Shown one piece after another: positions 42,001 through 45,000 of a DNA stretch of 64,000 nucleotides. A program made the position numbers. Source of the DNA: an uncultured archaeon (lineage in GTDB: Archaea; Iainarchaeota; Iainarchaeia; Iainarchaeales; 1-14-0-10-31-34); contig CAYTYC010000003.1 of assembly GCA_964442255.1 (NCBI GenBank), positions 1 through 64,000 of the forward strand, given 5' to 3'. How positions within the stretch are numbered: the stretch's first letter is position 1; every line of letters starts with the position of its first letter.

Positions 42001-45000
42001 GGAGGCAAAAAATTTTGGCGGAGTTCCGTTCAACATTGAGCTGAGGCTGAGCGTGGAAGACAGCCCGAATTCCGCGGGGGTCGTGATTGACGCGATAAGG
42101 TGCGCAAAGCTTGCCTTGGAAAGAAGGCAGGGCGGCGCAATAATCGGCCCAAGCTCTTACTTCTTCAAGCACCCCCCTGAACAGTTCCCTGACAGCAGGG
42201 CCCGCGAGTTAGTGGAAGAATTCATTAAAGGAAAATGAATTTTTCCGGAAATGTTACCTTTAAAAACCGCTTTGGACACAATTTTTTTGTGGGCTAGGCC
42301 GGGGAGTCAGCGGTTCCCTGTAACCGGAAATCCGCTTCATGCCGGGGCTGAAGCTTCAGGGGCAGGCGCAGATGCCAGGGCAAATCCCTGTCCGGGCAAT
42401 GAACCCCTGTCCTCTAAGATTAACTGGTATAGTGAACCCCGCCAGGTCCGGAAGGAAGCAACGGTGGCTTTAGCAGTTAATGCTTTTGAGGGTTACGGGG
42501 GCAAGCGAGGCCGGGGACTGTTTGCCCGAACATTTGCGTTTCACTTTGAAGCGTGCCCGCGCTTTTGTTCAGGGGGATTAAATGGAAAAAACCATGGAAA
42601 TAGAGTTAGAGGAAGGCGAGGAAATAAAAGCGTCCATAAGAAAGGCTATGCACGAAAACAAGGTCAAAAAATGCGGGATAAAGAAAATGGATGGAATAAT
42701 AAGGAAAGGGGCGGTCAGGGAAGAAGGGTCTGGTGAAGAAAAGGAATTCAATGAAGCAGAGGCAATAAGCGCAACCGGAATTTTAAGCCTGACTGAAGGC
42801 GGACTGATAGGGGAAATCAGGGTAGGCGCAAAGAAAGGGTTTTCGTTTTACAGCGGAACATTGACCAAGGGAATTGCCGCGCAAGGCTTTAAGGTGGAAG
42901 CCGCTTTTTCGGCGTGAAATTTCTTCTTTGGATTTTGGTGTGCCGTGTAGTTTAAGGCTTTTTCTTTCCTTTGGGAAGGTTCAGGCTTCCGGCTCCCTCG
43001 TAAAGGACTATCGCGGATTTGATGAACGAAATCGCCGCAAAAAATGCGAACACAAAGCCTATGGGCAAAAGGAATTCAATCCACTTGCTTCCAAAAAGAA
43101 AGGAAAGCGCAAAGGTGTGAACTATCACATAGCACACGAAAAAAAAGTTTCCGGCAACAATCCATTGGAAAAGGTAGCGGGAGGGGGCGTCAGGCATTCT
43201 TTTTCTTGCCGCAGCAAACCACATCAGCGCAAAAAAGGCTATCAGGCCTGCAACCAGCCCCAGGGAAAGGTTAAATAAATCCGTTCCAGGCATGTTAAGT
43301 CTCAATTAAATAAGGCGCAGGGTGTATAAAAATCTTTCTCTGGTTCAAAGGGAAGAAGAAAGCTCTTCAATCCGCTTTTCAGGTGAAGAATCCTTAACAA
43401 TTCCGGAGGCAACAAAAACCCCTTTGGCGCCCAATTCAAGAGATTTTTTCACATCCCGGGAGTTTTTTATCCCCGCGCCCACAATCAGGGGAATTCCTTT
43501 TTCAGAAAGGGCTTTGGCGCAACCGGAAATTATTTCCGGGCTGGAGGAAGAAACGCTCACATCCCCGCCGATTAGTTCCGCGGGCTCAAATGCGATGAAA
43601 GACGGCGCGAATTCGGCTAATTCTTTTGCGCGCTCAAGGGACTCCGCGCAAAGCATTGTTTTCAGCCCAATTGAGGAGGCGCGTTCAACGGCTTTTTGGA
43701 TGAATGAATTGCCGCGCCTGTTTTCCGCGTGATTTAAGGCTGTTCCGGATGCGCCCGCCTCTTTCACTGCCTCCGGAAGAATGCTTCCCGTGAATGCCCC
43801 GCATTCCACGGGGTCAATGTGCTGGGAAAAGATTTTCAGGGAAACCGCCTTGGAGAGAAGGCGGATGTCAGTGGGCTGAACAACCAAAACAATTTCTTTC
43901 CCTGTTTTGTTTGCAGCGGCTTCAGCTTTTTTCGCCAACTCCAGCGCGTTTTTTCCGGTTCCCTCCGCATATGTTTTGAAGTTGATGAACAGCCTGTTCA
44001 TTTTTTTTCCCTTCATTTCAGGATTTTCTCAAGGGAACTGCTTAAGCCAAAGACCTTTTCCGCCTCTTCGCTTAACGCATAAAGCGAATCCTTTTTTCCC
44101 TTGAGTTCGGAAACACTTTTTGCTCGCTGGGTTGCGCAAATCATGCGCATTTCCTCGGCCATTGCCTCGCAGTATTTTTCCACCCCTTGCTTCTTGTCCG
44201 TGTTTGCGGCTATCAGGAAAGGCCTGGACATTGCGCTTCCGGATGCGCCGAGAAGCATTGCCTTGCAGACGTCAATCCCTGAAGTGTAGCCGCCGGCAAG
44301 AAGGATGTCAAATGAAACCTTTTTATTTAAGGCAGAGAAAACCGCGCCAGAAGGAAGGCCTATTTCATTCATCACCAGCCACGGACTCATTCCAGTCCCT
44401 CCGCCAAACCCGTCAATAGTAAGGCAGCGAATGTCGGCTTTTTCCTCTTTTTTTAGTTTTTCAATCCATTCAATCAGGGAAAGAAGGCCGCGGCCGAAGC
44501 CTGTTTTTATCCAAAAAGGAAGCCCAAAAGAAGAGTATTTTTCAATTAACTGCCTTAATTCCCCAAAAAAAAGGCTTCCGGGAGCGGAATGGCGCTGGAA
44601 TTTTCCGCCAGGCATTTTCACCACATGGTAACCGAGTTTCCTGAACCTTTCGGCATCAGCCTCTGAATCAAATTTTATTTCCCCCCCCAGCCCTTGTTTT
44701 GCCCCCTGCCCTATTTTAAGCTCAATTCCCATTGCGCCGTAGGAAACGGCTTTCTCAAAAATTTCCTGCCTCTGGTCTTCAACATTTCCCTGCACCACAA
44801 TTGCGCCGTGCTTTCCGTCAAAGGAGTCAATAAATGGCCTGATTCTTTCCTTCAGGCCTTTTTCCCCGTGTGTTGCAAGCACGTTTTCCCCGATGCTTAC
44901 CCCAATCCCTGCCCTGGCCGCGCCTTCCGCAAGGGCCTTTCCCCTTGAATGCGCGACAATGGTTGAACCCATTCCCGCGATTGAAACCGGCACCCTGAAA

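What a model noticed while it worked through the whole genome (the two positions that open the first line are those of the whole stretch)
42287..42562. Signal recognition particle without SRP19 and without SRP RNA helix 6
The SRP RNA gene (C3:42287-42562, 276 nt) aligns end to end with the archaeal SRP RNA model but skips the 40 model positions that form helix 6, the hairpin that binds SRP19 and clamps helix 8; helix 8 (SRP54 site, GGAA loop) and the Alu domain are kept. No SRP19 gene exists in the genome, while SRP54 (g01171) and FtsY (g01169) are present. RNA hairpin and protein were lost together, and this holds across Iainarchaeales, giving an archaeal SRP with a bacterial-like S domain.
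Evidence so far: cmscan alignment: model 1-317 matched, '*[40]*' of the model against '*[0]*' of the sequence exactly between helix 5 and helix 8. Six-frame search with Pfam SRP19 (PF01922): 0 of 26 genomes (this one and 25 relatives of 18 families, 15 of them >=90% complete); control rings in 3 of 4 archaeal model genomes; no SRP19 row in pfam.tsv. The same search over the whole order: 0 of 196 genomes over the family cut-off, one weak 20-bit hit with stop codons. SRP RNA found in 23 of the 26 genomes, 267-296 nt against a 317-position model; alignments of 4 relatives: the same 40-position gap in G019, G144, G154 (three families), a ~20-nt stump of helix 6 in G170.
(Added by a program. Inside this text positions count along the whole contig: contig position 1 is position 1 of the stretch shown here. 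"Call 12" and the like, gene names such as g00115 and contig names such as C1 are that model's own, and its searches are not shown. The text may have been shortened before it was handed on; [...] marks where a part breaks off. The agent that wrote the report below was given it as the finding of a first reader that could run no searches.)

Follow-up and report, generated by a model that had tools for sequence, protein, structure and literature searches.

The report
Archaeal SRP without SRP19 and helix 6
This archaeon and every searched genome of its phylum carry a signal recognition particle RNA that has lost the hairpin binding protein SRP19, and no SRP19 gene was found, so their protein-targeting particle appears to consist of the RNA plus SRP54 only, as in bacteria.

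Summary
Window 42287-42562 (+) is a full-length archaeal SRP RNA (RF01857, 150.5 bits, model 1-317). It skips exactly the 40 model positions that form helix 6 in three control archaea. The Alu domain, helix 5 and helix 8 are kept, including the SRP54 site and the GGAA loop.

The feature is phylum-wide. Of 132 genomes, 124 have the RNA, at 265-296 nt against 314-317 nt in the controls. In 47 of 48 aligned RNAs the helix 6 site holds 0-2 nt; G170 keeps a 21-nt UUCG hairpin there. Covariation shows helix 5 running straight into helix 8.

SRP19 was not found in 0 of 215 genomes, either with Pfam PF01922 or with my own 150-sequence profile. The same Pfam search finds it in 109 of 121 genomes of another archaeal phylum. 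The SRP54 M domain is found in 204 of the same 215 genomes.

SRP54 and FtsY are present and of archaeal type. Most likely this is a two-component archaeal SRP that arose by joint loss of SRP19 and its RNA site. I found no paper that describes it. Whether sister DPANN phyla share the loss could not be tested.

The parts
42259..42266 (+). TATA-like box TTTAAAAA. It ends 21 nt upstream of the RNA 5' end, which suggests an archaeal promoter for the SRP RNA gene (inferred).
   Evidence: Read directly from the sequence. No promoter scan was run. The spacing matches the usual archaeal TATA position (my own knowledge).
42287..42562 (+). SRP RNA (7S RNA) gene, 276 nt, archaeal type without helix 6.
   Evidence: RF01857 150.5 bits, model 1-317. 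Only match in the genome. MFE -126.4 kcal/mol, z -4.09 against shuffles.
42287..42295 (+). Helix 1, 5' strand. It pairs with 42554-42562.
   Evidence: CM structure line '[[[[[[[[[' ... ']]]]]]]]]'. Four of these pairs, at alignment columns 5-8 with 332-335, are predicted with compensatory changes.
42296..42350 (+). Alu (small) domain, helices 2-4, with the UGUAAC motif at 42319-42324.
   Evidence: CM alignment. Pairs with many compensatory changes in 48 sequences.
42352..42426 (+). Helix 5, 5' strand. Its last base, 42426, directly precedes the place where helix 6 should start.
   Evidence: CM alignment, '*[40]*/*[0]*' after 42426.
42426..42427 (+). Site of the missing helix 6. No nucleotides stand here, against 40 model positions.
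   Evidence: In 48 aligned RNAs of the phylum this site holds 0 nt in 44, 1-2 nt in 3 and 21 nt in G170.
42428..42472 (+). Helix 8, the SRP54 M-domain binding site. It has an asymmetric loop, a symmetric loop (CAGG at 42443-42446 with AGCA at 42457-42460) and a GGAA tetraloop at 42450-42453.
   Evidence: CM alignment. GGAA in 46 of 48, CAGG in 34 of 48, AGCAA in 42 of 48 aligned RNAs.
42474..42553 (+). Helix 5, 3' strand.
   Evidence: CM alignment. Covariation.
42554..42562 (+). Helix 1, 3' strand.
   Evidence: CM alignment.
42563..42566 (+). T-run (TTTT) right after the RNA 3' end, a likely archaeal termination signal (inferred).
   Evidence: Read from the sequence.

Best explanation
Its SRP appears to have only two parts, the RNA and SRP54.

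The RNA keeps the archaeal helix 1, the Alu domain, helix 5 and helix 8. The three-way junction of the S domain has collapsed into one continuous hairpin, because helix 6, the SRP19 binding hairpin, is gone. The SRP19 gene is gone too.

Inferred mechanism: the SRP54 M domain binds the conserved symmetric and asymmetric loops of helix 8 directly, without SRP19 or helix 6 as clamp or platform, as bacterial Ffh does on 4.5S and 6S RNA. The retained GGAA tetraloop and the long helix 5 serve docking and GTPase activation of the SRP54-FtsY complex. The Alu domain is available for the ribosome.

Shown here: the RNA architecture, its conservation and covariation across the phylum, the presence of SRP54 and FtsY, and the failure to find SRP19. 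Inferred: that the particle assembles and works this way, and that the state arose by loss.
For: RNA architecture:
- RF01857 full-length match with exactly helix 6 skipped.
- Helix 6 is present in 3 of 3 control archaea under the same model.
- 124 of 132 phylum genomes at 85% completeness or more have the RNA, all with model 1-317. By my reading of the coordinates, the 121 matches over the cut-off are 267-296 nt, and only G170 exceeds 282 nt.
- MAFFT of 50 phylum RNAs plus 3 controls: 49 of 50 lack the roughly 42 helix 6 columns.
- RNAalifold on 48 RNAs: helix 5 continues into helix 8, and 60 of 64 predicted pairs carry compensatory changes.
- The helix 8 loops are conserved.
- RF01854 Bacteria_large_SRP matches end to end at 86.9 bits.

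SRP19:
- PF01922: 0 of 1 (own genome), 0 of 196 (order), 0 of 215 (phylum) over the cut-off.
- My 150-sequence SRP19 profile: 0 of 215 significant. The best is E 0.007 per genome at 16 bits, and about 1.5 such hits are expected by chance over 215 genomes.
- That profile scores 96-135 bits in 3 of 4 other archaea. It contains a crenarchaeal SRP19, from Caldisphaera.
- The 215 genomes include one-contig genomes G026, G083 and G179 and the 2-contig G150.

Baselines:
- PF01922 in 109 of 121 genomes of the phylum of G215.
- PF02978 (SRP54 M domain) in 204 of the same 215 genomes, and in 57 of 58 high-quality ones.

Partner proteins:
- SRP54 has N, G and M domains, and FtsY has N and G domains.
- SRP54 is closest to archaeal structures: 3dm5 at 408 bits and 2v3c at 373 bits, against bacterial Ffh 2ffh at 253 bits.

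Literature: passages of PMC2905702 and PMC6098224 state that archaeal SRP54 binds SRP RNA without SRP19, and that deleting SRP19 in Haloferax volcanii did not affect translocation.
Against: - There is no experimental evidence on the particle.
- No RNA-seq run holds the locus, so expression and RNA ends are unverified.
- Nearly all genomes are MAGs.
- The Pfam six-frame control missed Sulfolobus acidocaldarius, which should have SRP19. Sensitivity to divergent SRP19 is therefore imperfect. My broader profile was not run on that control.
- 1 of 5 and 1 of 4 helix-6-bearing control archaea gave no SRP19 hit. Both misses are the same genome, G217.
- A non-homologous protein that takes over an SRP19-like role on another part of the RNA cannot be excluded by sequence searches.
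- G170 keeps a short hairpin at the site, so the state is not strictly uniform.
Confidence: 0.85

Rival explanations
1. SRP19 is still present but too divergent to find, or has been replaced by an unrelated small RNA-binding protein that binds elsewhere on the RNA, for example on helix 5 or helix 8.
For: The Pfam six-frame control missed Sulfolobus acidocaldarius. DPANN proteins evolve fast (my own knowledge). No proteome-wide fold search was possible.
Against: The binding site itself, helix 6 with its GNAR loop, is absent in 47 of 48 aligned RNAs. Two independent profiles give 0 of 215, and the second includes crenarchaeal-type sequences. The genes next to the SRP RNA and between ftsY and srp54 are no candidates. 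One is a weak PCC-domain protein (24.2 bits, under the cut-off of 25). The other is a 236-aa membrane protein not conserved in relatives, with weak matches in 3 of the 40 relatives searched.
Confidence: 0.07
2. The absence is primitive, not a loss. This lineage keeps a pre-SRP19 architecture (Alu domain, helix 5 and helix 8, as in Bacillus-type bacterial SRP RNA), and helix 6 with SRP19 arose in other archaea after it branched off.
For: The architecture equals that of RF01854. The state is uniform across the phylum. No outgroup DPANN phylum could be searched, so the polarity is untested here.
Against: SRP19 and helix 6 are shared by the other archaeal groups and by eukaryotes (PMC2905702, passages read: 'identified in all archaea subgroups'). 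G170 keeps a paired stump that the model aligns to the base of helix 6, which looks like a vestige. Primitive absence would require this phylum to be sister to all other archaea plus eukaryotes. To my knowledge published phylogenies do not support that.
Confidence: 0.05
3. Artefact: incomplete bins, misassembly or a forced covariance-model alignment create the appearance of loss.
For: Most genomes are MAGs. 8 of 132 lack a detectable SRP RNA.
Against: The RNA lengths themselves, 265-296 nt against 314-317 nt, are independent of the model alignment. MAFFT, which uses no structure model, shows the same gap. One-contig genomes show the same state. The SRP54 M domain is recovered in 204 of 215 of the same genomes. 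The SRP19 baseline elsewhere is 109 of 121.
Confidence: 0.02
4. The SRP RNA, or the whole SRP, was acquired from bacteria by horizontal transfer, which would explain the bacterial-like S domain.
For: RF01854 passes its cut-off. The helix 8 core CAGGUCCGGAAGGAAGCA also occurs in many bacterial genomes hit by the pattern scan.
Against: The archaeal model scores far higher, 150.5 against 86.9 bits. Archaeal helix 1 is present. SRP54 is closest to archaeal SRP54 structures. ftsY sits in what I recognise from recall as the usual archaeal S19e-L39e-L31e-aIF6-LX-pfdA-ftsY cluster; the genes were named by eye from the translations. The same helix 8 core also occurs in the control archaea.
Confidence: 0.01

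Closest known systems
Canonical archaeal SRP (SRP RNA + SRP19 + SRP54), e.g. the Methanocaldococcus jannaschii S domain (PDB 2V3C, 1LNG), reviewed in PMC2905702
   Same: Helix 1, the Alu domain with UGUAAC, helix 5, and helix 8 with symmetric and asymmetric loops and a GGAA tetraloop. Archaeal-type SRP54 (2v3c at 373 bits). FtsY as the single receptor.
   Different: No helix 6, no GNAR loop, no helix 6-helix 8 tetraloop clamp and no SRP19 gene. The S domain is an unbranched hairpin instead of a three-way junction.
Large bacterial SRP RNA (Rfam RF01854 Bacteria_large_SRP; the Bacillus subtilis scRNA type)
   Same: The same set of elements: Alu domain, helix 5 and helix 8, without helix 6 and without SRP19. 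The window RNA matches this model end to end at 86.9 bits.
   Different: By sequence it is archaeal (150.5 bits with RF01857). It has helix 1. Its partner is an archaeal SRP54, not Ffh. The bacterial Alu-domain partner HBsu (recalled, not tested) is not expected here.
Haloferax volcanii SRP19 deletion mutant (Yurist et al. 2007, as cited in PMC2905702 and PMC6098224; only those citing passages were read)
   Same: An archaeal SRP that works without SRP19. In vitro, archaeal SRP54 binds 7S RNA without SRP19.
   Different: That is a laboratory deletion in an organism that keeps helix 6. Here a whole phylum lacks both protein and hairpin in nature.
Other non-canonical archaeal SRP RNAs: the permuted and circularised SRP RNA of Thermoproteus (PMC4731332, abstract seen) and the eroded Alu domains of Desulfurococcales and Nitrosopumilus (PMC2905702, passage)
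   Same: Lineage-specific remodelling of an otherwise conserved RNA.
   Different: Those cases alter gene order or the small domain and keep SRP19 and helix 6. Here the large domain is remodelled and a protein subunit is missing.

Membership tests
Archaeal SRP RNA (Rfam RF01857) | Score over the gathering threshold, full-length match | tested here: met
   150.5 bits against 96.5, model 1-317.
Archaeal SRP RNA (Rfam RF01857) | Helix 1 (pairing of the 5' and 3' ends) and an Alu domain with helices 2-4 and a UGUNR motif | tested here: met
   CM alignment. UGUAAC at 42319-42324. Covarying pairs.
Archaeal SRP RNA (Rfam RF01857) | Helix 6 with a GNAR tetraloop (the SRP19 site) | tested here: not met
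   40 model positions against 0 nt. Present in 3 of 3 controls. Absent in 47 of 48 phylum RNAs.
Archaeal SRP RNA (Rfam RF01857) | Helix 8 with a GNRA tetraloop and symmetric and asymmetric loops (the SRP54 site) | tested here: met
   GGAA in 46 of 48, CAGG with AGCA conserved.
Large bacterial SRP RNA (Rfam RF01854) | Score over the gathering threshold, and the best-scoring model of the clan | tested here: not met
   86.9 bits is over the cut-off of 60, but RF01857 scores 150.5 and wins within the clan. The resemblance is one of architecture, not membership.
SRP19 (Pfam PF01922) | A gene whose product matches the family in this genome or phylum | tested here: not met
   0 of 1, 0 of 196 and 0 of 215 over the cut-off. 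Own profile A2: 0 of 215 significant. Baseline 109 of 121 in another phylum.
SRP54 (archaeal/eukaryotic type) | N domain, SRP GTPase domain and M (signal peptide and RNA binding) domain in one protein | tested here: met
   PF02881 at 45.6 bits, PF00448 at 222.9 bits, PF02978 at 91 bits. Best PDB hits are archaeal SRP54.
FtsY (SRP receptor) | N and G domains of the SRP GTPase family, without an M domain | tested here: met
   PF02881 at 43.9 bits and PF00448 at 236.1 bits, with no PF02978. A charged extension of about 150 aa stands at the N terminus.
Two-component SRP (RNA + SRP54/Ffh only) | SRP54 binds the helix-6-less RNA, and the particle targets proteins | not testable with these tools
   This needs biochemistry. 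The tools fold no RNA-protein complex.

The most novel reading that the evidence does not exclude
The lack of helix 6 and SRP19 is not a loss but the ancestral state. On this reading the phylum preserves the pre-SRP19 SRP (Alu domain, helix 5 and helix 8) that it shares with Bacillus-type bacteria, and SRP19 with helix 6 was invented later, on the branch leading to the other archaea and eukaryotes.

A more modest version is much more likely, and I rate it at about 0.85 as the best explanation. It says this is the first natural archaeal lineage shown to run a two-component SRP, with G170 as a snapshot of helix 6 decay.
Probability: 0.05. Interest if true: 0.85.

Novelty: new variant of a known kind. 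Interest (0 to 1): 0.62.

Why it matters
SRP19 and helix 6 are treated as defining parts of the archaeal and eukaryotic SRP. The 2010 review states that SRP19 was found in all archaeal subgroups and coexists with helix 6 (PMC2905702).

A whole phylum without either would be the natural counterpart of the Haloferax SRP19 deletion. It would show that the SRP19/helix 6 clamp is dispensable over evolutionary time, not only in the laboratory. It would offer a minimal archaeal SRP for structural and biochemical work: how an archaeal SRP54 M domain holds helix 8 without the helix 6 platform.

It is also a practical warning. SRP19 cannot serve as a universal archaeal marker, and its absence should not be counted as incompleteness in these genomes. 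A clade-specific SRP RNA model would fit them better. If an outgroup comparison becomes possible, the polarity of this character bears on how the three-way S-domain junction arose.

Tried and rejected
- DPANN outgroup. I wanted SRP19 and SRP RNA in sister phyla. The single genome-contig scan used a pattern for helix-6-spaced SRP RNAs. It returned mostly bacteria and 8 non-DPANN archaea, so no handle to another DPANN phylum was obtained. 'relatives' with n=80 stayed inside the order. Protein-library look-ups gave no DPANN names. The question stays open.
- The 20-bit 'SRP19' hit in G122 is out of frame inside the aIF6 gene, so it is chance.
- Weak hits of profile A2 (16 bits or less) are in line with chance and were not followed.
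- Candidate substitute proteins. The 111-aa gene downstream of the RNA is only a sub-threshold PCC-domain match. The 236-aa membrane protein between ftsY and srp54 has no Pfam family and gave only weak matches in 3 of the 40 relatives searched. Both were dropped.
- Expression: no RNA holder was listed for the locus.
- Literature. Searches for SRP19+DPANN, 'signal recognition particle'+Iainarchaeota, SRP19+DPANN phylum names, SRP19+archaea+metagenome-assembled, SRP RNA+helix 6+archaeal, and 'lack(s)/lacking/without helix 6' found no paper that describes an archaeal SRP without SRP19 or helix 6. The supplements of three DPANN genomics papers held no SRP19 entry. Subscription journals are not covered by that library.
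- No structure prediction, fold search or complex prediction was run. None would bear on a missing gene.
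Full report
THE OBSERVATION

cmscan against Rfam 15 places a single family on window 41800-43100. It is RF01857 Archaea_SRP at 42287-42562 (+): 276 nt, 150.5 bits against a gathering score of 96.5, E 2.2e-36, model 1-317, not truncated. 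The alignment contains one large deletion. Forty model positions stand against zero nucleotides, between window 42426 (the last base of the 5' strand of helix 5) and 42427 (the linker before helix 8).

To see what those hidden positions are, I ran the same model on three archaeal SRP RNAs from other phyla. There, positions 142-181 are an 18-bp hairpin closed by a four-base loop, GUAG, GGAG and GGAG. This is helix 6 with its GNAR loop. Those RNAs are 317, 316 and 314 nt long.

The window RNA is 41 nt shorter than the model, so nothing is hidden elsewhere in it. It is the only RF01857 match in the 1.28-Mb, 93.8%-complete genome. It folds well: -126.4 kcal/mol, z -4.09 against shuffles. A TTTAAAAA box ends 21 nt upstream, and a TTTT run follows the 3' end (read).

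WHAT IS KEPT

The kept parts are:
- helix 1 (42287-42295 with 42554-42562);
- the Alu domain with UGUAAC (42296-42350);
- helix 5;
- a canonical helix 8 (42428-42472), with CAGG and AGCA in the symmetric loop and a GGAA tetraloop.

IS IT A PROPERTY OF THE LINEAGE?

I searched RF01857 in the 132 genomes of the phylum that are at least 85% complete. Of these, 124 have a match and 121 are over the cut-off, all covering model 1-317. By my reading of the coordinates, the 121 are 267-296 nt long. Only G170 (296 nt) exceeds 282 nt.

I aligned 50 of these RNAs with MAFFT, together with the three controls. The 50 were the 30 best-scoring loci, which the tool returned, plus 20 that I chose to cover further families, the second order, closed genomes and length outliers. 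This is not a random sample. 49 of 50 have an empty block where the controls carry about 42 nt. G170 has 21 nt there.

In a second alignment of 48 RNAs, the site holds 0 nt in 44, 1-2 nt in 3, and 21 nt in G170. I left out G049 and G058 from this alignment; they are near-identical to G047 and G056. The G170 stump folds as a 6-bp stem with a UUCG loop, not GNAR.

RNAalifold on the 48 RNAs predicts helix 5 running without a branch into helix 8. 60 of 64 predicted pairs carry compensatory changes, including the pairs that flank the former junction. In helix 8 the GGAA loop is kept in 46 of 48, CAGG in 34 of 48 and AGCAA in 42 of 48.

The S domain is therefore an unbranched hairpin, as in the large bacterial SRP RNAs. 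The window RNA also matches RF01854 Bacteria_large_SRP end to end at 86.9 bits (cut-off 60), well below its archaeal score.

SRP19

The six-frame search with PF01922 gave the following results.
- Own genome: no match even at E 10.
- Order: 0 of 196 over the cut-off.
- Phylum: 0 of 215.

The best hit, 20 bits in G122 with two stops, lies in another frame inside the aIF6 gene and is chance.

The tool's own control missed Sulfolobus, so I built a broader profile. I took SRP19 genes from four helix-6-bearing archaea and used them to search 1.84 billion representative proteins, which gave 1080 hits at E 0.001 or better. The best 150 were aligned as A2. One of them is the SRP19 of the crenarchaeon Caldisphaera lagunensis.

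Against the 215 genomes, A2 finds nothing significant. The best hit is E 0.007 per genome at 16 bits, and about 1.5 such hits are expected by chance. In four further archaea A2 scores 96-135 bits in three. The fourth, G217, was negative with both profiles and is probably incomplete.

TWO BASELINES FOR MAG QUALITY

- The same PF01922 search in the phylum of G215 (record title: Thermoplasmatales archaeon) finds SRP19 in 109 of 121 genomes.
- In the window's own phylum, the similarly small SRP54 M domain (PF02978) is found in 204 of 215 genomes, and in 57 of 58 high-quality ones.

The SRP19-negative set includes one-contig genomes (G026, G083, G179) and the 2-contig G150.

THE REST OF THE PATHWAY

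On contig C24 the genome encodes FtsY (447 aa, N and G domains after a charged N-terminal extension) and SRP54 (450 aa, N, G and M domains). They lie at the end of a run of genes that I read from the translations as S19e, PDCD5-like, L39e, L31e, aIF6, LX and prefoldin alpha. These names are mine, given by eye, and were not scanned.

SRP54 is closest to archaeal SRP54 structures: P. furiosus 3dm5 at 408 bits and M. jannaschii 2v3c at 373 bits. It is more distant from bacterial Ffh, 2ffh at 253 bits. The system is therefore native and archaeal, not a bacterial import.

MECHANISM

Shown here:
- the RNA has no SRP19 site;
- no SRP19 gene is detectable;
- the SRP54 site, SRP54 and FtsY are conserved.

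Inferred: the particle is RNA plus SRP54. The M domain binds helix 8 directly, as Ffh does in bacteria, and as archaeal SRP54 can do in vitro without SRP19 (passages of PMC2905702 and PMC6098224). In canonical archaeal RNAs helix 6 packs against helix 8 through tetraloop adenosines and bulged adenosines (PMC2905702). Here that clamp cannot exist. Helix 8 must be held by coaxial stacking on helix 5 and by the protein. From my own knowledge of the bacterial system, the conserved GGAA loop is then free for its role in SRP54-FtsY docking.

RIVALS

- A very divergent or unrelated substitute protein (0.07). This is weakened mainly by the absence of the binding site. The two neighbouring candidate genes are also unsuitable.
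- Primitive absence instead of loss (0.05). This could not be tested, because no outgroup DPANN genome could be reached. The single genome-contig scan returned no DPANN record, and 'relatives' stayed within the order. The G170 stump, which the model aligns to the base of helix 6, reads more easily as a vestige. However, G170 sits inside an order whose sister order lacks the hairpin entirely, so a re-insertion is also possible.
- Artefact (0.02). This is countered by raw lengths, a structure-free alignment, closed genomes and the two baselines.
- Bacterial origin (0.01). This is countered by the model scores, helix 1 and the archaeal SRP54.

COMPARISON WITH WHAT IS KNOWN

This is an archaeal SRP RNA by score, helix 1, Alu domain and helix 8, but it fails one defining feature of the family, helix 6. 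It works like the Bacillus-type bacterial SRP RNA in architecture without being a member of that family.

The 2010 review states that SRP19 was identified in all archaeal subgroups and coexists with helix 6. It also reports that deleting SRP19 in Haloferax volcanii had no effect on translocation. The present case is the natural, phylum-wide counterpart of that deletion.

Seven full-text searches and three supplement searches found no description of an archaeal SRP without SRP19 or helix 6. The library does not cover subscription journals, and I did not see the SRP database or Rfam family notes.

VERDICT

This is a new variant of a known kind: moderately surprising to specialists, since SRP19 was already known to be dispensable, but clean, phylum-wide and experimentally tractable. 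The main open points are the state of sister phyla, direct evidence for the RNA ends, and biochemical proof of a two-component particle.

Noticed in passing
L013 (G170:C29) 1501-1796, minus strand: The one SRP RNA of the phylum that keeps something at the helix 6 site. It is a 21-nt insert that folds as a 6-bp stem with a UUCG loop, not GNAR. The genome has no SRP19 hit either. It could be a vestige or a re-insertion.
   Followed up: partly
G000:C24 16180-16890 (L044 4181-4891, +): A 236-aa protein with one predicted membrane helix (judged by eye from the translation) sits between ftsY and srp54. It has no Pfam family and gave only weak matches in 3 of the 40 relatives searched, so it is not a conserved SRP partner.
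   Followed up: yes
window 42582-42917 (+): The 111-aa gene directly downstream of the SRP RNA is a weak match to the PCC domain (PF03479, 24.2 bits, just under the cut-off of 25).
   Followed up: partly
window 40097-42238 (+) and 43345-45326 (-): Flanking genes, read by eye from the translations and not scanned: tyrosyl-tRNA synthetase, archaeal-type myo-inositol-1-phosphate synthase, triosephosphate isomerase, and a glutamate-synthase-like FMN protein.
   Followed up: no
G217 (genome of L061, a Hydrothermarchaeota record): Its contig matched my pattern for a helix-6-spaced SRP RNA, which suggests a canonical RNA, though I did not run cmscan on it. Yet no SRP19 was found with either profile. 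A second genome whose record title names the same group (G222) has SRP19 at 135 bits. Probably an incomplete bin, but not checked.
   Followed up: no
L013 1061-1132 (-) and L048 56-142 (-): A tRNA gene lies 57-370 nt from the SRP RNA gene on the same strand, both in G170 and in the Methanocellaceae control.
   Followed up: no
tool controls: The PF01922 six-frame control never rings for Sulfolobus acidocaldarius, although SRP19 structures exist for Sulfolobus (PDB 3KTV, listed in PMC2905702). The Pfam model, or the first-look filter, is weak for crenarchaeal SRP19.
   Followed up: partly
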